Below the pieces are notes generated by a model, which did not search any database, was not told the DNA's origin, and saw only the letters and a list, made by a program, of their open reading frames with translations. This document shows, piece by piece, positions 13,834-60,577 of a stretch of DNA of 64,000 bases (positions are counted from its first letter, which is position 1; each line of letters begins with the position of its first letter). The translations under genes were made by a program, and so were the position numbers. Source of the stretch: Lentisphaerota bacterium (GTDB lineage Bacteria; Verrucomicrobiota; Lentisphaeria; Victivallales; Victivallaceae); contig SUWB01000004.1 in NCBI GenBank assembly GCA_015061745.1, positions 47,883-111,882 of the forward strand, written 5' to 3'.

Positions 13834-13862
13834 AACATACGACACAGTTATGAAATATTCAA
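13834..13862 (-). promoter_or_regulatory. candidate promoter for the exbB-like operon (TTGAAT-17-TATGTT)
   Basis: Minus strand reads TTGAATatttcataactgtgtcgTATGTT, about 80 nt upstream of ATG 13754. Confidence 0.4.
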
Positions 13863-14046
13863 ATGAAAATCCTTTTATTTTCAGACTTTTTTCGGGATAT
13901 TTTTATTTTTTTGATTTTGTTCGGTTAAAAGAGTACCGTTTGAAATTATATGACCCTCCAGAATGTTGTCCCGCATATGCTGATCCGGAAAAATAACCCA
14001 AAAATATTAAAATGACTTTTTTTAAGTGATTTTCTAAAAAAAAGAT

Positions 14047-22513: not shown

Positions 22514-23560
22514 TTACCAGTGACGCACTTTCATTCCCATTGCTTCTGCCAGTTTGTCCCGTACCGGATGTACCGGATGAGTGGGGGTAACGTGATTTTT
22601 GACAAAAGCAACTGCAATGCCCCGTTCACGATCCGCAAAGCCTTCGCCGCCCAAAGCACCTCCGTGACCGAAAACAGCACTGCTTTCAGGTGCATAGGGC
22701 AATGCCCACCCCAAACCGAATTTAGCCCAGGAGGAGGAGAGAGGATTACTCCAGTGGCGGCGGACAATGGTGGCATTATCAATGGTTTCCGGAGCAAGCA
22801 TCGGTTTTCCGTCCAACCCGAAAGTAATGGCTGCATAAATCTTGGCCAGAGCGTTTGCAGTGGCAACGCCATTGGCAGAGGGAATAAAGCCCCGGCGGAG
22901 TTTTTCGCGGCTCATCATCTGTAAGGCGTTGGCTTTTTCTGTATCATCTTCTTCAACAAGGCGGGATTCCGCTTCTTCATCAGTTCCGAAGTAGAACTCT
23001 TTTTCGATATCAAGAACTTCAAAAATCTCCTGCCGGAGAAAATCTTTGAAAAAGATTCCGGATGCCCGGGTGGCCAATTCTCCAATAAGCCAGGCGTAGG
23101 TGATACCGTGGTATGCACAAACTTCACCGGGAGTATTGCCGGGGATCGCCTGAGCTATTTTATTGACCATCAAATCCCAATCTGCCATATCATCTTGAGT
23201 GTCGAGTTGGGGAAGTGCATTTACCGCAGCCCGGTGGGTCAGCGCGTGCCAGACCAAAGTGTCCTCTTTGCCGTTACAGCCGTATTCCGGCCAGTAGTCG
23301 GCGATGCGGTCGGAATAGCGGATTTTTTGCTGTTCCACCAACATATGGAATCCGGCAGTCATAACCCCCTTGCCGCAGGAGTAAATGGGAAAAAGGGTCT
23401 TTTCTGTGACGGGGATCGTTCTTGCTTTGTCGGCAAAACCGGAAACAAGAGAAGCAACCTGCTGGCCGTGGTCGTAGATAGCCAGCTGAAGACCGCATTC
23501 TTCTCCGGAGCCTGTGGCGTTGTCCATAATTTCCTGAAGTAACGGAATATCGAATTGCAT
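22514..23560 (-). CDS. serine hydrolase, beta-lactamase/esterase (class C-related) family
   Basis: S-x-x-K motif (YSCGKGV) near the N-terminus. Length 348 aa and overall pattern fit the beta-lactamase-related esterase family. Confidence 0.8.
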   Translation of the reverse strand: MQFDIPLLQEIMDNATGSGEECGLQLAIYDHGQQVASLVSGFADKARTIPVTEKTLFPIYSCGKGVMTAGFHMLVEQQKIRYSDRIADYWPEYGCNGKEDTLVWHALTHRAAVNALPQLDTQDDMADWDLMVNKIAQAIPGNTPGEVCAYHGITYAWLIGELATRASGIFFKDFLRQEIFEVLDIEKEFYFGTDEEAESRLVEEDDTEKANALQMMSREKLRRGFIPSANGVATANALAKIYAAITFGLDGKPMLAPETIDNATIVRRHWSNPLSSSWAKFGLGWALPYAPESSAVFGHGGALGGEGFADRERGIAVAFVKNHVTPTHPVHPVRDKLAEAMGMKVRHW

Positions 23561-23627: not shown

Positions 23628-24776
23628 TTATATCATTTCACGGTAACCGCCGAGAAATACAAATGTATCCGGCCCTGAAGCCAAACCGTCGAGCAGCCGG
23701 ATGACTTCCGGATTGCGGGGAGAGGCTTCGAGGTCAAAGTAGAACATAAATTCAAATTCCCGTCCGGGAATGGGACGGCTTTCCAACTTGGTCAGGTTGA
23801 CTCCAATGGTGGCAAACTTTGAAATCAATCTGTAAAGAGAACCGGGACTGTGAGAGGTTGACAACATCAAACTGATTCTGTCTGCTCCCGGAAAAAGACG
23901 CATATTCCGGGAAATACAGATGAACCGGGTCCGGTTGGCGGCATTGTTCTGGATCTCCTCTGCGGCAAGGTCGCTGAGGCCGTAGACCTGTGCACAATTC
24001 AAAGAAGCAATGGCGGCAATGTCGTTGCGGTCAGATTCGGCCACCATCTTGGCTGCCATTGCCGTATTGTCGTGAATGGTGATCTTGATGCCGGGGTGCC
24101 GGTTGAGAAATTCCCGGCACTGCAAAATACCCTGTTCGTGAGAAACGATTTCTTTGATATCTTCCAGTTTGACTCCGGGTTTTGCCAGCAGATGGTGACG
24201 GATCGGCATAGAAAGACTCCGGACAATGTAGAATTTGTTGCTTCGCATCAAATCGTAAATGGCATTGACGCTGCCGGAAGTGCTGTTTTCAATGGGCAGT
24301 ATGCCATATTCGCACAAGCCCTGTTCCACAGCCTGAAAGACACCGGCAAAATTTCTGACATAGACGATGTCCGCCTGTTTGAAAAGCCGGTCACAGGCTT
24401 GCTGAGAATAGGCTCCTTCAACTCCCTGACAGGCAACGACGGCTCTTTCAGGGAACGGGGATTCCAGGTCAGCTTTTCCGGCAGCTTCCAAGGCTGCGGC
24501 AAGTTTTCCGTTGCCGGAAATAAGGTAACGCTGATAGGAACGGCTCAAGTCAAACAAAGTGGTGAAAAGGACGGCGGCTCTGTCTCCAAGTTCATCTCCT
24601 GCACGTTTGATCATACGCAAACGTTCTTCCCGTTCCCGGGAGTTGTCGGTGACTGCCAGATTGGCAGCGATTTTGGCTTTGGCAACTTCTGAAGAAACCT
24701 TCATCCGTTCCACGAAAAGATCGCAGATTTTATCATCGATATCGTTGATCTTATTACGACATTCCTGCAGATTCAT
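23628..24776 (-). CDS. pheA: bifunctional chorismate mutase / prephenate dehydratase (P-protein)
   Basis: N-terminal CM helix (LQECRNKINDIDDKICDLFVERM). PDT domain (VACQGVEGAYSQQA, NRTRFICIS). C-terminal ACT domain (ESRPIPGREFEFMFYFD). Confidence 0.9.
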   Translation of the reverse strand: MNLQECRNKINDIDDKICDLFVERMKVSSEVAKAKIAANLAVTDNSREREERLRMIKRAGDELGDRAAVLFTTLFDLSRSYQRYLISGNGKLAAALEAAGKADLESPFPERAVVACQGVEGAYSQQACDRLFKQADIVYVRNFAGVFQAVEQGLCEYGILPIENSTSGSVNAIYDLMRSNKFYIVRSLSMPIRHHLLAKPGVKLEDIKEIVSHEQGILQCREFLNRHPGIKITIHDNTAMAAKMVAESDRNDIAAIASLNCAQVYGLSDLAAEEIQNNAANRTRFICISRNMRLFPGADRISLMLSTSHSPGSLYRLISKFATIGVNLTKLESRPIPGREFEFMFYFDLEASPRNPEVIRLLDGLASGPDTFVFLGGYREMI

Positions 24777-25774
24777 TGGAGTGCATTCCTTAAATTATTG
24801 ATTTTTTTCATCATATTGTCGAAACTTCCGGGCGTCAGGGATTGAGCCCCGTCGCACAAGGCACAGGTGGGATTGTTGTGTACTTCAATAATAAGTCCGT
24901 CCGCACCGGCTGCGACGGCAGACATTGCCAGGGGTGAAACATATTTGGCGATACCGATGGAGTGACTGGGGTCAACAATAATGGGCAGATGGCTCAGGGA
25001 TTTGATGACGGGAATGGCTGAAATATCAAGGGTATTTCTGGTCTGGGGCTCAAAGGTACGGATACCTCTTTCGCAGAGAATGACCTGATCGTTACCTGAG
25101 GACATAATGTATTCAGCACTCATAAGCCATTCCTGATAGGTATTGGCAAGGCCTCTTTTCAGCAGAATGGGTTTGCGCTGCTTGCCGATCTGGCGGAGCA
25201 ATTCAAAGTTCTGCATATTTCTGGCACCGATCTGGATCACGTCAACTTCATCAAAAAGGTCAAGCTGTGAAAGATCCATAATTTCAGTGACGATGGGCAG
25301 ACCGGTTTCTTTTTTTGCTTCAAGAAGCAGCCGGATACCTTCGCCCCGGAGACCCTGGAAGGCATAGGGGCTGGTACGGGGTTTGAAAGCACCGCCGCGG
25401 AGCATTGTAGCACCGGAGGCTTTGACTGCTTTGGCAACAGTGATGATCTGTTCTTCGGATTCCACAGAACAGGGACCGGCAATGACAGAGAAAAAACCGC
25501 CGCCGAGTTTGACATCACCGACTTTGACAATGGTGTCATCGGGATGAAATTTCCGGTTGGCATCTTTGTAGGGTTCCTGGATGCGTTTGACATCTTCAAT
25601 AATGTCAAGAGCTTTGAGCATTTCCATATCGACCCGTGATGTGTCGCCCACCAAACCGATAACGGTCTGGTTTTTCCCTTCAGACAAGTGAGCCTGAAGA
25701 CCGTGCTGTTCCAGAAATTTACGCAGTGAATCAACTTGCGTTGCCCCCGGATTGGGCTTGAGAATGATGACCAT
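24773..25774 (-). CDS. 3-deoxy-7-phosphoheptulonate (DAHP) synthase, type I-beta with an N-terminal regulatory ferredoxin-like domain
   Basis: VIAGPCSVESEEQ, GGAFKPRTSPYAFQGL and PSH motifs. The N-terminal ~65 aa extension is of the Thermotoga type. 4-nt overlap with pheA. Confidence 0.9.
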   Translation of the reverse strand: MVIILKPNPGATQVDSLRKFLEQHGLQAHLSEGKNQTVIGLVGDTSRVDMEMLKALDIIEDVKRIQEPYKDANRKFHPDDTIVKVGDVKLGGGFFSVIAGPCSVESEEQIITVAKAVKASGATMLRGGAFKPRTSPYAFQGLRGEGIRLLLEAKKETGLPIVTEIMDLSQLDLFDEVDVIQIGARNMQNFELLRQIGKQRKPILLKRGLANTYQEWLMSAEYIMSSGNDQVILCERGIRTFEPQTRNTLDISAIPVIKSLSHLPIIVDPSHSIGIAKYVSPLAMSAVAAGADGLIIEVHNNPTCALCDGAQSLTPGSFDNMMKKINNLRNALQ

Positions 25775-25796
25775 TTTTTTCTCTCCTTATAGTCAT

Positions 25797-25831
25797 AAAA
25801 AAAGCTCCGTGCGATTTTTTTCGCCCGGAGC
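25797..25831 (-). terminator. rho-independent terminator/attenuator in the leader of the DAHP synthase-pheA operon
   Basis: Minus strand reads GCUCCGGGCG-AAAAAAAU-CGCACGGAGC (10 positions, one G-A mismatch) followed by UUUUUUU. It ends 22 nt before the DAHP synthase ATG. Confidence 0.65.
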
Positions 25832-25857
25832 CGTATCTCGAATGCTGTTACTCATCA

Positions 25858-25947
25858 TCAGTGAACATTTACAGCACGCAGAGACCGACTCCGCTTGGTA
25901 AAAGCAAAACCGGTAAAATAAAAGCTGCTGTAATAATATTTGTTCAT
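25858..25947 (-). CDS. candidate 29-aa Tyr/Phe-rich leader peptide
   Basis: My translation is MNKYYYSSFYFTGFAFTKRSRSLRAVNVH followed by TGA TGA TGA. GAGGAA lies about 8 nt upstream of the ATG. Eight aromatic residues occur in positions 4-16. Confidence 0.5.
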   Translation of the reverse strand: MNKYYYSSFYFTGFAFTKRSRSLRAVNVH

Positions 25948-25978
25948 CAATAATTCCTCATTTCTGATTTTCTTCTCT

Positions 25979-26007
25979 AATATAGCACACCAAAATATTC
26001 TTTTCAA
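25979..26007 (-). promoter_or_regulatory. sigma70-like promoter for the leader / DAHP synthase-pheA operon (TTGAAA-17-TATATT)
   Basis: Minus strand reads ggacTTGAAAagaatattttggtgtgcTATATT, about 30 nt upstream of the leader ATG. Confidence 0.6.
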
Positions 26008-26062
26008 GTCCTGATTTATATATTTTTTTGATTTTTTTTCTGCCGCTGTGAGTATCTTGGAT

Positions 26063-26398
26063 TCAGCACCAATTCCCCTGGACAAGGAACATATAAACAA
26101 TGGTGCCGATCACAATGGAAAGCAATGGATTCTTTTTCCACATCTGCAGCGCAACGACAACGGTGCTTGCAATGAGTTCAGCTCCGACAGCGGTCCGGGT
26201 GTGCCAATGGCTGAAAAGGCAGTAGACAGTGAGCATCGCTATGGCTGCCGGAGAAATTACGCTGCCCAAATAACGGATGAGAGGAGGTGTTTCCTTGTGT
26301 CTGCCGAATGCAATAAAAGGGAACGCCCGGAGCAGAACTGTGGTCAACGAGGCAAGAAATACGATCAGGAGAGCATAGGTTATGGAAGAAGTATTCAT
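26063..26398 (-). CDS. azlD: branched-chain amino acid exporter small subunit AzlD
   Basis: 111-aa, about 4-TM protein with LRAFPFIAF. Overlaps azlC by 4 nt, the typical AzlCD arrangement. Confidence 0.75.
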   Translation of the reverse strand: MNTSSITYALLIVFLASLTTVLLRAFPFIAFGRHKETPPLIRYLGSVISPAAIAMLTVYCLFSHWHTRTAVGAELIASTVVVALQMWKKNPLLSIVIGTIVYMFLVQGNWC

Positions 26399-27117
26399 TT
26401 TTTTACAACCCTTCCTGATTGAAACTTTTTACGGAAAATGAGAAAAACGGCCGTCATCACGATCATTGCGGGGATGAGCATCTTGTCCACCGGGAAAAAA
26501 CATCTTGCCAGAAGGGCAGCCGCAAAACCGGTCAGGGCCGGAAGTTTGTTGGATTTTTCACGGAGCTGATCGGTCAGTATAACCAGAAACAATGCTGTCA
26601 TAGCAAAGTCGATCCCCCGGCAGTTGAAGGGCAGGGCACTTCCCACCAATGCTCCCAGAGATACACCGGAAACCCAATAGCAGTGATCCAGAAAGGCAAC
26701 TTTCATACAATAATCCACTGAATCCTGCTTGTCCTGCCTTTTGTCGGCACATTGCAACGCATAGGTTTCATCGGTCAAGGTCCAGATAAGATACCACTTT
26801 TTCCAGCGGGGGATTCCCTCAAAACGTTCAATGAGAGAAAATCCGTACATTGCATAACGCAAATTGAGAAACAAGGTCAGCAAGACCACATCTGTCAGGG
26901 GAATCGACTCCTTGAGCCAGTCGACCATAATGAACTGCAACGCTCCGGAGATGCTCAGGGTACTGCTGACAGTTCCCCACAAAGGCATTGCCGGAAGGGT
27001 AGGCAATGTACCTGCCAGTACGATTCCTGCGGCAGCTCCCATTGCAAGATATCCCATTAAAACAGGCAGCGTATCTTTGAAGGCACTCTGCCAATTTTTC
27101 TTTTTCATCAAAAACAT
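26395..27117 (-). CDS. azlC: branched-chain amino acid exporter AzlC
   Basis: 240-aa polytopic protein. N-terminus FKDTLPVLMGYLAMGAAAGIV is typical of the AzlC family. Confidence 0.8.
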   Translation of the reverse strand: MFLMKKKNWQSAFKDTLPVLMGYLAMGAAAGIVLAGTLPTLPAMPLWGTVSSTLSISGALQFIMVDWLKESIPLTDVVLLTLFLNLRYAMYGFSLIERFEGIPRWKKWYLIWTLTDETYALQCADKRQDKQDSVDYCMKVAFLDHCYWVSGVSLGALVGSALPFNCRGIDFAMTALFLVILTDQLREKSNKLPALTGFAAALLARCFFPVDKMLIPAMIVMTAVFLIFRKKFQSGRVVKK

Positions 27118-31602: not shown

Positions 31603-33426
31603 TTATTTACCGTAGACGGGAGTGAGGACTTCCAGCAGCCGGGCACACTCTTCCGGAGTGCCGATCGTGATCCGGACATATTTGCCCTCTGCTGCTTTGG
31701 GGAAGTAACGCACCACGACGGCGGATTCACGCAGAAGTTTGAAGCAGCGTTCACCATTCTGATCCGGCGGGGAAACGAAAAGGAAGTTTGCTTCTGAAGG
31801 AATGATCTTGAAGCCTAAAGCCGCCAAGTCTGCTGCCAGGGCGTTGCGCTGAGCGATAACGGCGGCACAACGGCTGTTGAAGTATTCCCGATCGGTGAAG
31901 GCAGCTTCTGCAATCGTCTGGCTGATCATATCCACATTGTAAGAGTCTTTGAGCTTCATAAGACCGTCAATAAGTTCTTTTGAGCCCACGGCATATCCCA
32001 GACGGAGCCCGGCAAGACCATAACTCTTGGACATTGTACGCATTACGAGAACATTTGGGAAAAGTGTGGCAAATTCCATACAGTTGTCGGCACTGAAATC
32101 GCCGTAGGCTTCGTCAATGACCACAATACCGTTGAATTCACGGCAGAGTTTCCGGACATCTTCTTTGGAAAAAGCGTTGCCCGTAGGAGCATTGGGCCGG
32201 GGGAAAATCAGCAGATTGGCACCCTCTGCCTGAGCAAGAAAATCTCCCGGCAGATCAAAATTGCGTTCTTCGTCCAAATCAATCTTGATGACCTTTGCCC
32301 CTTGCATCGCCGCAAGAACAGGATAGAGGGAATAGGTCGGTTCCGGGATCGCCACAGGCAGTTCGGGAGAGGTGAAAGCACGGAAAATCATCGTCAGAAG
32401 ATCATCGGAACCATTGCCCACAATGATATTTTCACGTTTGACACCATTGACCGCAGCAAAAGCATCCCGGAGTTTGTCTGCACAGGGATCGGGGTAACGG
32501 TTGAGCCGTTTCCAGTCAAATTCCCGCCAGGCTTTTTCAACGGCAGGGGAGGGAGGCCAGGGATTTTCATTGGTATTGAGTTTGACCAGATTGGTGAATT
32601 TGGGCTGTTCACCGGGGGCATAGCCTTCGAGAGCATCTATTTCTGCTCTGAAATAGGACTTCTGGGGCCACCGGCGTTCATTTTTATCCCGGGCAACTGT
32701 ACGCCGGATAGCGGTACAAGGGGCAATGGGAGAAAGTGCTTTGATAAAACGCTCAAAGGTTTTTTCGTCGGGAACAGGGATATTTTCCACCGTGCCGGGA
32801 CGGTCGAGAGAGTTCAATTCAATGGAGTCAAGACGCATTTTTCCGAGCAGAGAGGCAAATCGGGCAACGGATTCTTCAGAGTCATTGATTCCGGGGACGA
32901 TAAAAAGTTCCAGTCTGATCTGAGCAGGGCACTGTTGGGTGAATGCTGTCAACTTTGAGGTGAATTCATCAAAAGTAATACTTGCTTCCGGGCGGTTGAT
33001 CGCTTTGAGTTCAGCTTCGTTTGAACCGTCGAAAGAGGGGACGATCAAGTCCGCTTTGTTGAGATCCTGCCACAATGATTCATCCTGAAGTGCGACAGCA
33101 TTGGTGAGCAGACAGAGTTTGTATCCGGGATGTTTGCTTTTGATGTGACAGATGATATCGGTGATTCCGGAGTGAAGCATCGGTTCTCCGGCACCGGAAA
33201 AGGTAATAAAGTCGATTTCAGGCTTGGCTGAAAGCACTTCGTCAAGTTCCCGTATGACTTCAGCAGTGGGGACATATTCTTTGCGGCAGCAGGTGAGATC
33301 AGTTGTTGCTTTGGCTTCGCAGTAAATGCAGTCCAGTTGACAGGTTTTGGGGGGAATGAGAGAAACTCCCAGAGATCTGCCGAGCCGCCGTGAGTTTAAG
33401 GGTCCGAAAACATATTTTCCGTTCAT
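31603..33426 (-). CDS. fusion protein: N-terminal radical-SAM domain plus C-terminal histidinol-phosphate aminotransferase (HisC-like)
   Basis: N-terminal part: GPLNSRRLGRSLGVSLIPPKTCQLDCIYCE (CxxxCxxC). C-terminal part from about residue 255: LNTNENPWPPSP, IVGNGSDDL, VVIDEAYGDF, RTMSKSYGLAGLRLGY (PLP lysine). Confidence 0.85.
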   Translation of the reverse strand: MNGKYVFGPLNSRRLGRSLGVSLIPPKTCQLDCIYCEAKATTDLTCCRKEYVPTAEVIRELDEVLSAKPEIDFITFSGAGEPMLHSGITDIICHIKSKHPGYKLCLLTNAVALQDESLWQDLNKADLIVPSFDGSNEAELKAINRPEASITFDEFTSKLTAFTQQCPAQIRLELFIVPGINDSEESVARFASLLGKMRLDSIELNSLDRPGTVENIPVPDEKTFERFIKALSPIAPCTAIRRTVARDKNERRWPQKSYFRAEIDALEGYAPGEQPKFTNLVKLNTNENPWPPSPAVEKAWREFDWKRLNRYPDPCADKLRDAFAAVNGVKRENIIVGNGSDDLLTMIFRAFTSPELPVAIPEPTYSLYPVLAAMQGAKVIKIDLDEERNFDLPGDFLAQAEGANLLIFPRPNAPTGNAFSKEDVRKLCREFNGIVVIDEAYGDFSADNCMEFATLFPNVLVMRTMSKSYGLAGLRLGYAVGSKELIDGLMKLKDSYNVDMISQTIAEAAFTDREYFNSRCAAVIAQRNALAADLAALGFKIIPSEANFLFVSPPDQNGERCFKLLRESAVVVRYFPKAAEGKYVRITIGTPEECARLLEVLTPVYGK

Positions 33427-47253: not shown

Positions 47254-47721
47254 ATGAAAAGGAATCAGATTTTTTCCATTCTTTCCTGTGCGGCAATTCT
47301 TTTTGTTGTTGCCGGATGTTCTACGGTCAGGGAACTTGCTCCTGAAAAACGTCTGGGCGAACCTGCGGCAGTGGAATACAAGCTTTCCCGTGAGATCCTT
47401 GTCAACTTCATCAACAAGGACTTTGAAAAATGCCGCCAAAACCTTACTCCCGAAAATCAGCAGAAGTTCGATATTAAAAAGGTGGAAAATGTATACAATG
47501 AGATTGTCCGTTCACTGGGGACTCCTGTTTCATTTTCCTATCTGACTGAACTTGAGTTCGTTACTTTTAAGATTTACGTTTGGAAAATCAAATTCCGCCG
47601 GATCGGAAAAGAAAGAGGAACCGGAAAAGAAAAAGAGTTTTTCAGCGAAGCACTGTTCAGAGTCATTACCGGCAGAACTGGCAAAGATCAGGTGATGATT
47701 ATGGGCTTCAATTTTCTCTGA
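47254..47721 (+). CDS. small lipoprotein (155 aa), function unknown
   Basis: MKRNQIFSILSCAAILFVVAGC lipobox. Internal ATG chosen because the track's upstream extension covers the promoter. Confidence 0.7.
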   Translation: MKRNQIFSILSCAAILFVVAGCSTVRELAPEKRLGEPAAVEYKLSREILVNFINKDFEKCRQNLTPENQQKFDIKKVENVYNEIVRSLGTPVSFSYLTELEFVTFKIYVWKIKFRRIGKERGTGKEKEFFSEALFRVITGRTGKDQVMIMGFNFL

Positions 47722-47745
47722 ATATTTGAAAGCAGTGTCCAACAG

Positions 47746-47777
47746 AGAGCGTTAAAGAACGCTCTTTGTTGTTTTTT
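47746..47777 (+). terminator. hairpin plus T-run (possibly a partial terminator) between the lipoprotein and secretin genes
   Basis: AGAGCGTT-aaag-AACGCTCT followed by TTGTTGTTTTTT. Confidence 0.55.
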
Positions 47778-52243: not shown

Positions 52244-53035
52244 ATGAAGCGCATATTGTTTTTTTGTTTGATTTTTGCTTCTCTGCTCGGAGCTGCTGAA
52301 TTGCGGGTCGTCTCACTGTCACCGGCTTTAACCGAGCTCATATGCCATTTAGGCAGGGGAAGTGTGCTGGTTGGACGCAGTGATGTTTGTAACGAGCCTG
52401 CTGCTGTCCGCCGCCTGCCGGTTGCCGGACGTTTTGCAGTTCCCTTTGTTGAAAAAATCATTGCTTTGAAACCGAATCTTCTCATAACCAATGACTTCGT
52501 CAATCCCGGCGTAAAAGTTCCCTTTGAACGTGCCGGGATCAGAACATTGCAGCTCCCCTGCCGCAATATGCAGGAGTACCGCCGCTGCGTGGAAATTCTG
52601 GGGCGGGAACTGAACGCTTCTGAGGCTGCTGCCAAAGAACTGAAAAGAATAGAGCTCTTTGGGGCTGAAAAGAGAAAGAAGCTCAATTTGCGCGTCCTCT
52701 GGGTCGTGTGGGATACGCCTTTGATGACTCCCGGGAAATATTCGCACTTGAATGAAATTATTGAACTTGCCGGAGCTCAAAATGCAACCGGAAAATTTGA
52801 GCTTGAATATTTGAGGCCCTCTTTGGATAAACTTCTCAAAGACAGAATAGATGTGATTATCTGGAGTGCTTCCAGTTCCGGGTGGAAACAACGCCGGGTC
52901 TGGAAAAAGTTTCAGGCGGTTCAGAAAAAACAGGTCTATGCCGATTTTGATCAGGATGCTCTGCTGCGTCCCGGGCCCCGTTTGCCGGAGGCTGTGCGGC
53001 AGCTTAGAAAAATATTGGAAAAGTGGAGCAAATGA
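52244..53035 (+). CDS. ABC-importer periplasmic binding protein, BtuF/FhuD (Peripla_BP_2) type
   Basis: Signal peptide followed by RVVSLSPALTELICHLG, typical of cobalamin/siderophore binding proteins. Confidence 0.75.
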   Translation: MKRILFFCLIFASLLGAAELRVVSLSPALTELICHLGRGSVLVGRSDVCNEPAAVRRLPVAGRFAVPFVEKIIALKPNLLITNDFVNPGVKVPFERAGIRTLQLPCRNMQEYRRCVEILGRELNASEAAAKELKRIELFGAEKRKKLNLRVLWVVWDTPLMTPGKYSHLNEIIELAGAQNATGKFELEYLRPSLDKLLKDRIDVIIWSASSSGWKQRRVWKKFQAVQKKQVYADFDQDALLRPGPRLPEAVRQLRKILEKWSK

Positions 53036-53964
53036 TGAAAAAAAATTCCCTGTCACTGTTTTTACTTTTTTTTGTTTTTATTTCCGGAGTCGTTCTGGGG
53101 AGTGAAATATTGAATTTCAATGATTTGTGGAATTCTCCGGTAGCCGAGCTCCGCTTTTTCAGAATGCTGGGGGCTTTGTTTATCGGGGGAGCTTTGAGTT
53201 TGAGTGGTATGGTCTTTCAGGCTGTTTTGCGGAACCCTTTGGCAGAACCTTATACATTGGGGGTCTCTGCCGGAGCCGGAGTCGGTGCTGCTGCGGCTTT
53301 TATTACAGGTCTTCACGCACTGAGTGTGTATTCTGTCCCTTTTGCCGCTTTGGGGGGAGCTCTTGTAACTGTTCTGCTCGTGCTGCGTATCAGCAGGGCA
53401 GGGGGGAGTGAAAAACTGCTGCTTTCAGGAGTCATTGCCGGAACGATTTGTTCCAGTGTACTTATGTTTCTTCTCTCTGTTGCCCGGAGTGAAGAAGTTG
53501 CCGCTGCGTCCTGGTGGCTCCTGGGGGATTTGCAATCTGTCAATGAAAAATTGCTGCTTCCTGTTATTGTGCTGACGCTGGGGATTATGTTTTATCTGCG
53601 CTGGATGGCAGGAGCTCTTGATCTGCTGGCTCTGGGAGAAAGAGAAGCTTTTTTTCTGGGACTTGACGTCGGGCGTATGAGATTGCTTATGGTTATTTGT
53701 GCATCCGCTTTGGCTGCGGCTTCTGTTGCATTGGCCGGTGCGGTTGGGTTTTGCGGGTTGATCGTTCCTCACGCTGTCCGCCGTTTGTATTCTGCTTCTC
53801 ACAGAAAGAATGTTTTTGCTATGTTCATTTGGGGCGGGATTTTTCTTATGGTATGCGATGTGATAAGCCGCATTGTGCTGCCCGGGCAGGAGTTGCCGGT
53901 AGGCGTTGTGACCTCTATAACGGGAGGGCCTGTCTTTTTGTGGATCTTGAACAGAAAGAAGTGA
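53032..53964 (+). CDS. FecCD/BtuC-family ABC permease
   Basis: Polytopic, with LLSGVIAG and GLIVPH motifs. ATG 53032 overlaps the upstream stop (ATGA). The track start is GTG 53023. Confidence 0.85.
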   Translation: MMKKNSLSLFLLFFVFISGVVLGSEILNFNDLWNSPVAELRFFRMLGALFIGGALSLSGMVFQAVLRNPLAEPYTLGVSAGAGVGAAAAFITGLHALSVYSVPFAALGGALVTVLLVLRISRAGGSEKLLLSGVIAGTICSSVLMFLLSVARSEEVAAASWWLLGDLQSVNEKLLLPVIVLTLGIMFYLRWMAGALDLLALGEREAFFLGLDVGRMRLLMVICASALAAASVALAGAVGFCGLIVPHAVRRLYSASHRKNVFAMFIWGGIFLMVCDVISRIVLPGQELPVGVVTSITGGPVFLWILNRKK

Positions 53965-59311: not shown

Positions 59312-60577
59312 ATGCCTGTTGACATTCTCGTGGGTACCCAGTGGGGCGATGAAGGAAAAGGAAAACTTATTGACGTTTTGACCGGTGATGTGGATATGGT
59401 CGTCCGTTTTCAGGGCGGCAACAATGCCGGACACACTGTTGAGATCGGTTCTGAGCGTTATGTGCTGCATCTGGTTCCCTCCGGAATCTTCCGTCCCGGA
59501 GTCCGTTGCGTGATCGGTAACGGACTTGTTGTTGACCCGATCGCTCTTGTTGAAGAACTTGAAGGCATCCGTGCCCGGGGTATCGCTGCTGACAATCTTG
59601 AACTTTCTGATCGTGCTCAGCTGATTTTTATTTATCACAAGCGTGCTGATGCCCTCAATGAAAAAGGTGCCGTCCGCAAAATCGGTACCACCGGACGGGG
59701 CATCGGCCCTGCCTACTGCGACAAGATGCGCCGCAGCGGTATCCGCGGATGCGATCTGTGCAAACCTGAGATCCTGAGCGCAAAGTTCCGTGCCGAGGCT
59801 GCCCGTTACAACAAGATTTTTGCCGAAGCCGGTGCCGAACTCATTGATATCGAAAAAGAACTTGCTCTTGTTCTTGAAGCTGCTGCCAAGTTGGCTCCTC
59901 TGGTTCGTAATACTGCTTACACCATCGCCCAGGCTGTCAAAGAAGGCAAAAAAATCCTTTGCGAAGGTGCTCAGGGCGGTCTGCTTGACGTTGACCACGG
60001 AACTTATCCTTTTGTGACCAGCAGCAACACCATTTCAGGCGGAGCCTGCACCGGTGCCGGAATTCCTCCCACTGCTGTGCGTAATGTGTACGGTGTGATC
60101 AAGGCCTATACCACTCGCGTGGGTGAAGGACCTTTCCCCACTGAACTCTTTGATGCTGACGGTGAACTTCTGCGTGCCCGCGGCCGTGAATTTGGAGCTA
60201 CGACCGGCCGTCCCCGCCGTTGCGGTTGGTTTGATGCTGTGGCTTCCCGTTACTCCTGTATGCTCAGCGGCGTGAACAAACTTGTTGTCACCAAACTGGA
60301 CGTACTTGACGAATTTGACGAGATCGCTGTCTGTACTGCTTATGAAATCGACGGTGTCCGTACTACTGAATTTCCTGCCGCTGTGGAAGATCTGGAAAAG
60401 GTCAAGCCCGTCTACGAAATGATGCCCGGTTGGAAGACTGCTCTTGATGCTGTCACTTCTGCTGATCAGCTTCCTGAGAATGCCCGCAAATATCTTGCCC
60501 GTATGGCAGAGCTCATCGGTGCTGATATTGAAATCATCTCAGTCGGTCCCCGTCGGGATCAGACCTTTAAGGCGTGA
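59312..60577 (+). CDS. purA: adenylosuccinate synthase
   Basis: GTQWGDEGKGK, GGNNAGHT, GTTGRGIGP and GATTGRPRRCGW are canonical PurA motifs. Confidence 0.95.
   Translation: MPVDILVGTQWGDEGKGKLIDVLTGDVDMVVRFQGGNNAGHTVEIGSERYVLHLVPSGIFRPGVRCVIGNGLVVDPIALVEELEGIRARGIAADNLELSDRAQLIFIYHKRADALNEKGAVRKIGTTGRGIGPAYCDKMRRSGIRGCDLCKPEILSAKFRAEAARYNKIFAEAGAELIDIEKELALVLEAAAKLAPLVRNTAYTIAQAVKEGKKILCEGAQGGLLDVDHGTYPFVTSSNTISGGACTGAGIPPTAVRNVYGVIKAYTTRVGEGPFPTELFDADGELLRARGREFGATTGRPRRCGWFDAVASRYSCMLSGVNKLVVTKLDVLDEFDEIAVCTAYEIDGVRTTEFPAAVEDLEKVKPVYEMMPGWKTALDAVTSADQLPENARKYLARMAELIGADIEIISVGPRRDQTFKA

What the first reader, a model, noticed from the sequence alone, without database searches (positions are those of the whole stretch)
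25797..26007. Tyr/Phe-rich leader peptide plus terminator upstream of the DAHP synthase-pheA operon: candidate ribosome-mediated attenuator
The elements in transcription order:
- A TTGAAA-17-TATATT promoter.
- A GAGGAA RBS.
- A 29-codon ORF MNKYYYSSFYFTGFAFTKRSRSLRAVNVH with 4 Tyr and 4 Phe in positions 4-16, ending in three consecutive TGA codons.
- A terminator, GCUCCGGGCG/CGCACGGAGC plus U7, that ends 22 nt before the DAHP synthase start.

The leader segment CGGAGUC (codons 19-21) is complementary to GGCUCCG, the 5' arm of the terminator, which gives a possible antiterminator.

This mirrors the logic of the enterobacterial pheL/pheA attenuator. I am not aware of it being described for PVC bacteria or for a type I-beta DAHP synthase operon.
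Basis: partly seen in the sequence, partly recalled or inferred. Interest (0 to 1): 0.65.

Follow-up and report, generated by a model that had tools for sequence, protein, structure and literature searches.

The report
Phe/Tyr leader-peptide attenuator of DAHP synthase
A short upstream reading frame packed with tyrosine and phenylalanine codons, followed by a terminator and a competing hairpin, most likely lets this gut Lentisphaeria bacterium switch on aromatic amino-acid synthesis when Phe or Tyr runs short; it is a classical mechanism, found here in a new phylum and as part of a large family that is not in Rfam.

Summary

The attenuator reading is well supported by comparison, though not by experiment.
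- The uORF, terminator and promoter are kept in all 15 distinct Lentisphaeria-group orthologous leaders examined, even where the upstream genes differ.
- Phe and Tyr codons swap freely between orthologues.
- Where the terminator sequence changes completely, the segment after the aromatic codons changes with it.
- The same architecture precedes 113 of 159 distinct homologous DAHP synthase genes, mostly gut Clostridia. Leaders with at least 7 aromatics in 12 residues occur in 50 of 79 real upstream regions and 0 of 79 in each control.

No Rfam family matches. The principle is not new. C. glutamicum aroR-aroF is a proven Phe/Tyr leader attenuator of a DAHP synthase, and the uORFC-13-1 motif was predicted upstream of Acholeplasma aroF.

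Verdict: real, a new member of a known kind, moderately interesting because of its breadth and its first record in a PVC bacterium.

The parts
25979..26007 (-). Sigma-70-type promoter: -35 TTGAAA (26007-26002), 17-nt spacer with extended -10 TG, -10 TATATT (25984-25979). The predicted transcript start is near 25972.
   Evidence: It matches 10 of 12 consensus positions (joint highest in 22-30 kb) and is the only hit with an extended -10 TG. Equivalent TTGCAA/TTGACA-17-TATATT/TATTTT boxes sit at the same place in the orthologues. Metatranscriptome contigs cover the leader but do not join it to azlD upstream.
25954..25959 (-). Shine-Dalgarno sequence GAGGAA of the leader ORF, 6 nt upstream of the ATG.
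   Evidence: Family-wide, SD pairing of -6 kcal/mol or better occurs at 68% of uORF starts against 8% of control triplets.
25852..25947 (-). Leader ORF of 29 codons (MNKYYYSSFYFTGFAFTKRSRSLRAVNVH), with its stop at 25860-25858 followed by two more in-frame TGA codons up to 25852.
   Evidence: Orthologous peptides include MNRFYYSSYYLTGFAYNRRSRSLRAVMFH, MNKFYYSNYYFTGYAYNKRSREFCAVNFH and MKKFYYSSCYFTGFAFSKRSWFLRAVNFH.
25900..25938 (-). Regulatory codon cluster, codons 4-16, with 4 Tyr (UAU/UAC) and 4 Phe (UUU). This is the proposed ribosome stall zone.
   Evidence: Across 113 family leaders the aromatic codons are 55% Phe, 43% Tyr and 2% Trp, and 107 of 113 have at least 2 of both Phe and Tyr.
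25902..25914 (-). Segment 1 (ACCGGUUUUGCUU, codons 12-16). It is the 5' arm of the 1:2 anti-antiterminator hairpin. An outer extension, UUACAGCAGC (25933-25924), pairs with GC.GUGCUGUAA (25879-25869).
   Evidence: MFE fold. Helices 1 and 2 of the terminated form are 88% and 86% paired in 9 distinct relatives, with 5 pairs changed on both sides.
25884..25896 (-). Segment 2 (AAGCGGAGUCGGU, codons 18-22). It pairs either with segment 1 or with the terminator's 5' arm.
25825..25893 (-). Antiterminator, a long hairpin: CGGAGUCGGUCUC..UGCUGU / ACAGCA..GAGAUACGGCUCCG. It consumes 25832-25825 of the terminator's 5' arm.
   Evidence: Constrained folds with a ribosome on codons 4-14 and segment 4 not yet made give -30 to -34 kcal/mol. 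The structure is 79-83% paired in relatives against 38-51% in slid controls, and the core helix is 93% paired. The energy is z = -3.2 against shuffles.
25797..25832 (-). Intrinsic terminator: stem 25832-25803 (GGCUCCG.GGCG / CGC.ACGGAGCU, about -16 to -18 kcal/mol) and U7 tract 25803-25797.
   Evidence: The stem is 94% paired in relatives. It ends 22 nt before the DAHP synthase ATG and does not cover that gene's AAGGAGAG RBS.
24773..25774 (-). Regulated gene 1: type I-beta DAHP synthase with an N-terminal ferredoxin-like (FXD) regulatory domain.
   Evidence: Pfam PF18152 + PF00793. The closest solved structures are the full-length T. maritima enzyme 1RZM/3PG9/1VR6.
23628..24776 (-). Regulated gene 2: bifunctional chorismate mutase / prephenate dehydratase (PheA). 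It overlaps the DAHP synthase stop by 4 nt. The operon terminator is at 23618-23591.
   Evidence: Pfam CM_2 + PDT; terminator scan.

Best explanation
This is a classical ribosome-mediated transcription attenuator that couples expression of the DAHP synthase-pheA operon to the charging of tRNA-Phe and tRNA-Tyr.

Shown by sequence and comparison:
- Transcription starts at its own promoter, near 25972.
- The leader encodes a well-initiated 29-codon ORF whose codons 4-16 hold 4 Tyr and 4 Phe.
- The RNA can adopt two exclusive folds. One is a terminated fold: hairpin 1:2 over the Phe codons plus terminator 3:4 with U7. The other is an antiterminated fold: a long 2:3 hairpin that uses up the terminator's 5' arm.

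Inferred:
- When Phe-tRNA and Tyr-tRNA are plentiful, the ribosome runs through segment 2 to the tandem stop codons close behind RNA polymerase. Segment 2 is then either covered by the ribosome or re-captured by segment 1. Segment 3 pairs with segment 4, and transcription stops at 25797.
- When either charged tRNA is scarce, the ribosome stalls in the Tyr/Phe cluster and holds segment 1. Segment 2 pairs with segment 3 as it emerges, the terminator cannot form, and polymerase reads into the DAHP synthase and pheA genes.
- The switch must be kinetic, because the full-length RNA is thermodynamically most stable with the terminator formed.
For: - Anatomy is exact.
- Constrained folding gives a -30 to -34 kcal/mol antiterminator once codons 4-14 are occupied.
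- Conservation: all Lentisphaeria-group orthologues (94-70% identical synthase, different neighbours) keep the promoter, SD, aromatic uORF and terminator.
- In 9 distinct close relatives the terminated fold is 88.9% paired against 33-47% with slid partners, and 14 cells changed on both sides (1 of 500 shuffles).
- In the same relatives the antiterminated fold is 78.6% paired against 38-51% slid, with its core helix 92.6% paired and 8 pairs changed on both sides.
- In more distant relatives the terminator sequence is replaced and segment 2 changes to match: GCGGAGUCGG/CGGCUCCG, GCGGAGCUGG/CAGCUCCGC, GCGGGCC/GGCCCGC, AGCGGGGC/GCCCCGCU. These duplexes are -18 to -28 kcal/mol, against -13 to -22 for the terminators.
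- Family-wide, an aromatic uORF is present in 113 of 159 distinct loci, and 99 distinct leaders have uORF plus terminator.
- Null controls: 50 of 79 against 0 of 79.
- The pre-segment-4 fold beats at least 95% of shuffles in 45 of 98 leaders.
- Stalling raises capture of the terminator arm from 0.58 to 0.77.
- SD, ATG and frame-specific aromatic codons support translation.
- RNA contigs from three metatranscriptomes span the leader, the terminator and the 5' end of the coding sequence.
- Experimental precedent exists for the same logic on a DAHP synthase gene: aroR-aroF (PMC11802643).
Against: - There is no experimental evidence for this element. The RNA data are low-depth assembled contigs that show only read-through, not a terminated leader or any regulation.
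- Full-length MFE keeps the terminator in 88 of 99 leaders even with a stalled ribosome, so antitermination rests on an assumed kinetic order.
- Without stalling, truncated folds still capture 0.58 of the arm on average. In several Lentisphaeria relatives the capture is as high as with stalling, so the protective role of hairpin 1:2 is not demonstrated.
- Covariation comes from only 9 related sequences, the structure was derived from one of them, and one slid control (-3) equals the covariation score of the antiterminated fold.
- A ribosome at the stop codon does not cover the core of segment 2, which lies 26 nt upstream.
- A stall at Phe16 would mask part of segment 2.
Confidence: 0.85

Rival explanations
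1. The small ORF is translated, but the signal is the nascent peptide, possibly with free Phe/Tyr bound in the exit tunnel (TnaC-like arrest), or the peptide acts in trans. It is not tRNA charging.
For: A short motif is shared in the Lentisphaeria group (F-A-F-x-x-[KR]-[KR]-R/S), and many Clostridia leaders share G-K-A after the aromatic run. Leader peptides with trans functions are known (peTrpL papers listed).
Against: Apart from aromatic content, the peptides are very diverse in length and sequence. Phe and Tyr interchange freely. The conserved residues coincide with the RNA segments that form the stems (GCUU/AAGC, GCGG), so RNA constraints explain them. An arrest that sensed abundant amino acid would switch the pathway on when the product is plentiful, which is the wrong sign for a biosynthetic operon.
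Confidence: 0.05
2. The hairpin plus U7 is a constitutive or leaky terminator (for example the end of the upstream azlCD unit), and the aromatic ORF is a by-product of U-rich spacer sequence.
For: azlD lies upstream on the same strand and no other terminator was seen between it and the leader. AT-rich spacers can yield aromatic small ORFs by chance; one such case is at 13850-13996.
Against: A promoter lies between azlD and the hairpin. The leader stays with the DAHP synthase gene when the upstream genes are different or divergent (L083/L088: ABM + acetyltransferase; L085/L175: divergent ETF). Controls give 0 of 79 against 50 of 79. The SD and frame signals are specific.
Confidence: 0.03
3. Another sensor (T-box, riboswitch or an RNA-binding protein) controls the terminator, and the ORF is incidental.
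For: In Firmicutes, aromatic amino-acid genes are commonly under T-box control (background stated in PMC1262725 and PMC2965389). An alternative-hairpin design is shared by all these systems.
Against: No Rfam family matches the window leader even at E of 10 or less. At gathering thresholds, none matches the whole window or 20 related loci. The leader is only about 175 nt, and most of it is the ORF and the two hairpins. What is conserved is codon identity, not a ligand-pocket-like core.
Confidence: 0.04
4. The uORF regulates translation or mRNA stability of the DAHP synthase gene rather than transcription termination.
For: The leader ends only 22 nt from the gene's start. Metatranscriptome contigs show read-through RNA.
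Against: The synthase RBS (AAGGAGAG) lies outside every predicted helix. A canonical GC-rich stem plus U7 is present and conserved, and 99 distinct family leaders have one.
Confidence: 0.03

Closest known systems
aroR-aroF leader-peptide attenuator of Corynebacterium glutamicum (Neshat et al. 2014, as summarised in PMC11802643)
   Same: A short leader peptide with Phe and Tyr codons (Phe-Tyr-Phe) sits upstream of an operon starting with a DAHP synthase gene. Ribosome stalling raises transcription of the operon. It is the same regulatory target and the same logic.
   Different: It is in Actinobacteria. It has only three regulatory codons, against eight here. It was reported to respond to Phe but not Tyr limitation. 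Its DAHP synthase is, from my memory, a different subtype, not the FXD type I-beta enzyme.
uORFC-13-1 motif (Brewer et al. 2021, PMC8632094)
   Same: It is a predicted uORF with a promoter, RBS and U-run coding for Phe, immediately before an intrinsic terminator. It is found exclusively upstream of aroF (3-deoxy-7-phosphoheptulonate synthase).
   Different: It was reported only from Acholeplasma and unidentified environmental sequences (24 representatives). It is described as having 'at least one' Phe codon, with no Tyr component noted. It was not detected by the Rfam 15 scans, and its alignment was not available, so I could not test whether it is the same family.
pheL-pheA attenuator of Enterobacteria (Rfam Phe_leader; PMC3082878)
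   Same: It has the same ribosome-mediated 1:2 / 2:3 / 3:4 logic and an aromatic-codon leader, and pheA is under its control.
   Different: pheL is about 15 codons with runs of Phe only and directly precedes pheA. Here the leader has 29 codons with equal Tyr and Phe, precedes the DAHP synthase gene, and pheA is the second gene. There is no Rfam match and no sequence similarity.
trpL, hisL and leuL type classical attenuators
   Same: They share the general architecture and the kinetic coupling of translation to terminator choice.
   Different: They sense a different amino acid. In trpL the stop codon lies between segments 1 and 2, whereas here the ORF runs through segment 2 and ends about 29 nt before segment 3.

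Membership tests
Classical ribosome-mediated (leader-peptide) transcription attenuator | A short upstream ORF with its own start codon and ribosome-binding site | tested here: met
   GAGGAA lies 6 nt before the ATG. Family-wide, 103 of 113 uORFs start with ATG, and SD pairing of -6 kcal/mol or better occurs at 68% of starts against 8% of controls.
Classical ribosome-mediated (leader-peptide) transcription attenuator | Enrichment of codons for the amino acid(s) made by the regulated pathway | tested here: met
   8 of 13 codons at positions 4-16 are Tyr or Phe. Leaders with at least 7 aromatics in 12 residues: 50 of 79 real upstream regions against 0 of 79 in each control. The enrichment is frame-specific: 1018 against 329 and 460.
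Classical ribosome-mediated (leader-peptide) transcription attenuator | An intrinsic terminator between the leader ORF and the structural gene | tested here: met
   Stem of -16 to -18 kcal/mol plus U7 at 25832-25797. It is 94% paired in relatives, and 99 distinct family leaders have one.
Classical ribosome-mediated (leader-peptide) transcription attenuator | An antiterminator that is mutually exclusive with the terminator | tested here: met
   The 2:3 hairpin of about -30 kcal/mol uses 25832-25825. It is 79-83% paired in relatives, with changes on both sides. Segment 2 tracks the replaced terminators. 45 of 98 leaders beat shuffles.
Classical ribosome-mediated (leader-peptide) transcription attenuator | An upstream 1:2 structure overlapping the regulatory codons that sequesters segment 2 when the ribosome is not stalled | tested here: inconclusive
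   The 13-bp hairpin 1:2 plus an outer helix is present and 86-88% paired in relatives. However, truncated folds without a stalled ribosome still capture the terminator arm in many leaders: 0.58 against 0.77 with stalling.
Classical ribosome-mediated (leader-peptide) transcription attenuator | Read-through that rises when the cognate charged tRNA is scarce | not testable with these tools
   Only assembled metatranscriptome contigs were available. They show read-through RNA but not regulation.
Enterobacterial pheL/pheA leader (Rfam Phe_leader) | A match to the family covariance model | tested here: not met
   The Rfam 15 E-value scan of 25000-27000 gave no leader family at E of 10 or less. The gathering scan of the whole window gave 0 hits.
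Enterobacterial pheL/pheA leader (Rfam Phe_leader) | A short peptide with runs of Phe only, directly upstream of pheA | tested here: not met
   Tyr and Phe are equal (4 + 4), the leader has 29 codons, and the first regulated gene is the DAHP synthase.
uORFC-13-1 motif (aroF uORF, PMC8632094) | A location exclusively upstream of aroF, with promoter, RBS, Phe-coding U-run and adjacent terminator | tested here: met
   The same gene class and the same listed features are present.
uORFC-13-1 motif (aroF uORF, PMC8632094) | Sequence and structure consensus of the published alignment | not testable with these tools
aroR-aroF attenuator (C. glutamicum) | A Phe/Tyr leader peptide upstream of a DAHP synthase operon acting by ribosome stalling | tested here: inconclusive
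   The architecture is analogous. Sequence relatedness to aroR was not tested because no aroR sequence was on hand, and stalling was not tested.

The most novel reading that the evidence does not exclude
The window element is one member of a large leader-peptide attenuator family that is not in Rfam and that I did not find described in the searched literature. The family reads Phe and Tyr codons together and travels with FXD-type (type I-beta) DAHP synthase genes across phyla as a self-contained regulated module: gut Clostridia, Lentisphaeria, and possibly a MAG labelled Thermoguttaceae (Planctomycetota). In Clostridia it replaces the T-box control expected there. It adds a transcriptional layer to an enzyme whose structural relative is itself Tyr/Phe-inhibited.
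Probability: 0.5. Interest if true: 0.55.

Novelty: new member of a known kind. Interest (0 to 1): 0.45.

Why it matters
- It extends classical ribosome-mediated attenuation to the PVC superphylum (Lentisphaeria).
- Among the homologous DAHP synthase loci sampled here, mostly from gut Clostridia, about 70% carry a Tyr/Phe leader peptide. None of the 20 related loci scanned had a T-box.
- It supplies a ready annotation rule for hundreds of MAG loci where these 20-35-codon ORFs are uncalled or listed as hypothetical.
- It offers a natural dual Phe/Tyr-responsive expression switch.
- It provides a test case for whether regulatory leaders move horizontally together with their gene.
- It does not change the understanding of the mechanism itself.

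Tried and rejected
- **Rfam**: the E-value scan of the region, the gathering scan of the whole window, and the gathering scan of 20 related loci found nothing on any leader.
- **Collection scans**: Close relatives had to come from exact-protein look-ups, which are now exhausted.
- **RNA-seq**: only Logan contigs of five gut metatranscriptomes were available. They have no strand or end information, so termination could not be assessed.
- **Cross-phylum covariance model**: model R1, built from six leaders, gave only 20-35-bit hits in Clostridia. These were positionally right but too weak to claim homology. The resulting alignment was contaminated by two stray window hits and missed L170 and L173, so I did not use it for pair counts.
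- **Stray hits**: 47693-47777 is an ordinary terminator, and 53033-53182 lies inside a coding sequence.
- **Second aromatic small ORF** at 13850-13996 (+), upstream of a 5'-3' exonuclease gene: it has no terminator, sits in an AT-rich spacer and has no functional link, so I judged it chance.
my first string search picked the wrong ACAGCA copy. Constrained folding replaced it.
- **L002 (Victivallaceae)**: my terminator finder rejected its GGGGTTTGTTTTTT tail. By eye it has the same design.
- **uORFC-13-1 membership**: the published alignment is not in the held supplements.
Full report
**1. The observation**

- Promoter: -35 TTGAAA at 26007-26002, a 17-nt spacer containing an extended -10 TG, and -10 TATATT at 25984-25979. 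It matches 10 of 12 consensus positions (joint highest in 22-30 kb) and is the only hit with an extended -10 TG. Such hits as a class are not enriched (7 found, 9.0 expected).
- RBS: GAGGAA at 25959-25954, 6 nt before the ATG at 25947.
- Leader ORF: 29 codons, MNKYYYSSFYFTGFAFTKRSRSLRAVNVH, with Tyr at 4, 5, 6 and 10 and Phe at 9, 11, 14 and 16.
- Stops: three in-frame TGA codons at 25860-25852.
- Terminator: arms GCUCCGGGCG (25831-25822) and CGCACGGAGC (25813-25804), followed by U7 at 25803-25797.
- Spacing: exactly 22 nt to the ATG of the next gene at 25774.

That gene is a DAHP synthase with an N-terminal ferredoxin-like domain (PF18152 + PF00793). It is followed, with a 4-nt overlap, by a chorismate mutase / prephenate dehydratase. 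The closest solved structures are the full-length Thermotoga maritima enzyme 1RZM/3PG9/1VR6, which makes it the type I-beta subtype. From my own knowledge, that enzyme is feedback-inhibited by Tyr and Phe through this domain.

The organism is a gut Lentisphaeria.
- PurA in the window is about 100% identical to a protein named 'MAG: Lentisphaeria bacterium', and all named hits down to 70% identity are Lentisphaeria or Victivallis.
- A secretin gene is present.
- The DNA is found in faecal, goat-gut and bovine-gut metagenomes.

**2.

The 198-nt leader folds at -51 kcal/mol, z = -2.85 against dinucleotide shuffles. The fold shows more than the terminator.
- A 13-bp hairpin lies inside the ORF. 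ACCGGUUUUGCUU (codons 12-16, 'segment 1') pairs with AAGCGGAGUCGGU (codons 18-22, 'segment 2').
- An outer helix encloses it: UUACAGCAGC (codons 5-8) pairs with GC.GUGCUGUAA (codons 24-27).

I then modelled a ribosome parked with any of codons 4-14 in its A site, with segment 4 not yet transcribed. The RNA then forms one long hairpin of -30 to -34 kcal/mol from 25893 to 25825. It reads CGGAGUCGGUCUC..UGCUGU paired with ACAGCA..GAGAUACGGCUCCG, and it uses up the 5' arm of the terminator.

The layout is therefore the textbook 1:2 / 2:3 / 3:4 design.

**3. Conservation in close relatives**

Exact-protein look-ups gave orthologous loci whose synthase is 94, 91, 89, 88, 86, 85, 84, 81, 74, 73 and 71% identical. 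Every one has a promoter-like box, an SD, an aromatic uORF and a terminator in front of the synthase gene.

This holds even though the upstream genes differ:
- azlCD in the window and L081;
- ABM + acetyltransferase in L083, L088 and L178;
- divergent ETF genes in L085, L175 and L176;
- trpBA plus a second DAHP synthase in L086.

The element therefore belongs to the synthase gene, not to the upstream unit.

The peptides differ mainly by Phe<->Tyr swaps (TTT<->TAT). Examples are MNRFYYSSYYLTGFAYNRRS..., MNKFYYSNYYFTGYAYNKRS... and MKKFYYSSCYFTGFAFSKRS.... Selection is therefore on 'aromatic codon', not on a particular residue.

I counted pairs on a MAFFT alignment of 10 leaders, 9 of them distinct.
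- Terminated fold: 88.9% paired against 33-47% when partners are slid. 14 cells changed on both sides, which 1 of 500 shuffles reach.
- Antiterminated fold: 78.6% paired against 38-51% slid. The core 2:3 helix is 92.6% paired, and 8 pairs changed on both sides (17 of 500).
- The six-sequence alignment gave the same picture.

There are three caveats. The sequences are few and related. The structures were derived from the window sequence. One slid control (-3) equals the covariation score of the antiterminated fold.

**4. The stronger test comes from more distant Lentisphaeria-group leaders**

In these leaders the terminator has a different sequence, and segment 2 changes with it:

| Leaders | Segment 2 core | Segment 3 core |
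|---|---|---|
| window | GCGGAGUCGG | CGGCUCCG |
| L090 | GCGGAGCUGG | CAGCUCCGC |
| L170 | GCGGGCC | GGCCCGC |
| L171, L173 | AGCGGGGC / AGCGGGG | GCCCCGCU / CCCCGCU |
| L086 | GCGGAGC + GCGAUUGC | GCUCCGC + GCAAUUGC |

L002 shows the same AGCGGGG / CCCCGCU pairing by eye, although my terminator finder rejected its T-tract.

The 2:3 duplexes are -18 to -28 kcal/mol. That is as strong as or stronger than the corresponding terminators, which are -13 to -22.

**5. The family is large**

The genome and metagenome scans returned mostly 61-71% identical synthase genes from gut Clostridia: Oscillospiraceae, Ruminococcaceae, Lachnospiraceae, Acutalibacteraceae and Anaerovoracaceae. Cultured strains among them include Oscillibacter valericigenes Sjm18-20, Angelakisella massiliensis and Hominicoprocola fusiformis. 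A few MAGs were labelled Victivallaceae, Thermoguttaceae, Planctomycetaceae or Bacteroidaceae.

- Of 159 distinct loci, 113 have a small ORF with at least 6 F/Y/W in 12 residues, a median of 29 codons long, lying mostly about 75-160 nt before the synthase start.
- In the controls, leaders with at least 7 aromatics in 12 residues occur in 50 of 79 real upstream regions. They occur in 0 of 79 reverse complements, 0 of 79 coding stretches and 0 of 79 shuffles.
- The aromatic codons are 55% Phe, 43% Tyr and 2% Trp, and 107 of 113 leaders have at least 2 of both Phe and Tyr.
- ATG starts 103 of 113 uORFs. SD pairing of -6 kcal/mol or better is found at 68% of starts against 8% of control triplets. 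Aromatic codons number 1018 in frame, against 329 and 460 out of frame.
- 99 distinct leaders also have a hairpin plus T-run between the uORF and the gene.
- The RNA available before segment 4 is more stable than at least 95% of dinucleotide shuffles in 45 of 98 leaders, where about 5 are expected.
- Modelling a stalled ribosome raises the captured fraction of the terminator arm from 0.58 to 0.77. Capture rises in 39 leaders and falls in 7.
- pheA follows the synthase in only 13 of 96 judgeable uORF-bearing loci, so the leader goes with the synthase gene.

A covariance model built from six Lentisphaeria leaders finds the Clostridia leaders only weakly, at 20-35 bits. About 20 of the 22 non-seed hits lie on the sense strand within about 190 nt upstream of the gene. 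This shows a shared architecture; homology is not established.

**6. Mechanism**

*Shown:* the parts, their order, their conservation, and the two exclusive folds.

*Inferred:*
- With ample Phe-tRNA and Tyr-tRNA, the ribosome follows the polymerase through segment 2 to the stop codons. Segment 2 is either occupied or re-captured by segment 1, 3:4 forms, and transcription ends at 25797.
- With either charged tRNA scarce, the ribosome stalls in codons 4-14 on or before segment 1. Segment 2 pairs with segment 3, and the polymerase reads through.

The switch must be kinetic. In the full-length RNA the terminator is in the MFE in 88-97 of 99 leaders, whatever the ribosome position.

Two points remain open. 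A ribosome at the stop codon does not cover the core of segment 2. And the protective role of hairpin 1:2 is not clear from folding alone.

The RNA evidence is thin. Assembled contigs from three bovine-gut metatranscriptomes span the leader, the terminator and the 5' coding region (25538-26003, 25544-25939, 25744-25895), and none joins the leader to azlD. This fits an own promoter and some read-through, but it says nothing about termination.

**7. Comparison with what is known**

No Rfam 15 family matches the leader, either here or in 20 related loci. It is not a member of the enterobacterial Phe_leader family. The model does not match, the peptide is not Phe-only, and pheA is not the first gene.

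The principle has two direct precedents.
- In C. glutamicum, the aroR leader peptide (Phe-Tyr-Phe) upstream of the aroF operon raises transcription when ribosomes stall under Phe limitation (PMC11802643).
- The uORFC-13-1 motif is a predicted Phe-coding uORF next to a terminator, found exclusively upstream of aroF in Acholeplasma and unidentified environmental sequences (PMC8632094).

I could not test membership in uORFC-13-1 because its alignment is not held.

Broad attenuator surveys do not mention an aromatic leader before a DAHP synthase (PMC2965389 and PMC1262725). Searches combining Lentisphaerae with attenuator or leader-peptide terms found nothing. The library is incomplete, so absence from it is not proof of novelty.

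**8. Verdict**

It is a new member of a known kind.

What is new is the phylum, the balanced Tyr + Phe codon content, the association with the FXD-type synthase, and above all the size and spread of the family, which is not in Rfam.

Noticed in passing
L001-L169 (for example L010 Oscillibacter valericigenes 3567337-3574323, L043 Angelakisella massiliensis, L020 Hominicoprocola fusiformis): Tyr/Phe-rich leader ORFs precede about 70% of the homologous DAHP synthase genes, mostly in gut Clostridia. Examples are MKKVFNYYFYNFYFFRPY and MNGTFAYAYYYFYFFYRS. Several carriers are cultured strains that could be used for experiments.
   Followed up: yes
window 24773-25774 compared with 59312-60577: The DAHP synthase is as similar to Oscillospiraceae genes (up to 71%) as to other Lentisphaerae genes (70-73%). 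For PurA, by contrast, every named hit down to 70% identity is Lentisphaeria or Victivallis. This suggests that the synthase, perhaps together with its leader, moved between gut Clostridia and Lentisphaeria.
   Followed up: partly
window 25852-25860; the same position in L081, L090, L083 and L088: Tandem in-frame stop codons end the leader ORF in most close relatives (TGA TGA TGA; TAA TAG TGA; TAA TAA TGA; TGA TAA). A second stop follows directly in 25 of 113 family leaders. This is possibly selection for prompt ribosome release before segment 3.
   Followed up: partly
L085, L175, L176, L177 leaders (for example L085 2806-2967): In this sub-group the leader ORF starts with TTG and carries one Trp codon among the aromatics (MKKFYYGAYWFAGFAFSRRS...). 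Two A-U pairs of the outer 1':2' helix are replaced by G-C.
   Followed up: partly
L086 1618-4011: A second DAHP synthase gene without the FXD domain (342 aa, PF00793 only) lies at the end of a trpBA cluster. It sits directly upstream of the leader and the FXD-type synthase, giving two isoenzymes in tandem with apparently separate control.
   Followed up: no
window 31603-33426 (-): A 607-aa protein combines an N-terminal radical SAM domain with a C-terminal class I/II aminotransferase domain. This is an unusual fusion.
   Followed up: no
window 13850-13996 (+): This is the only other small ORF in the window with 7 aromatics in 12 residues. It lies in an AT-rich spacer before a 5'-3' exonuclease gene, has no terminator, and was judged to be chance.
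   Followed up: yes
window 22514-23560 (-): A serine beta-lactamase-family gene follows pheA after the operon terminator (23618-23591). The same neighbour is kept in L083 and L088.
   Followed up: no
window 25774, 25796, 25839: The strain seen in the bovine metatranscriptomes differs in the leader by T>C at 25796 (just past the U-tract), C>T at 25839, and a 1-nt shorter A-run before the synthase ATG.
   Followed up: no
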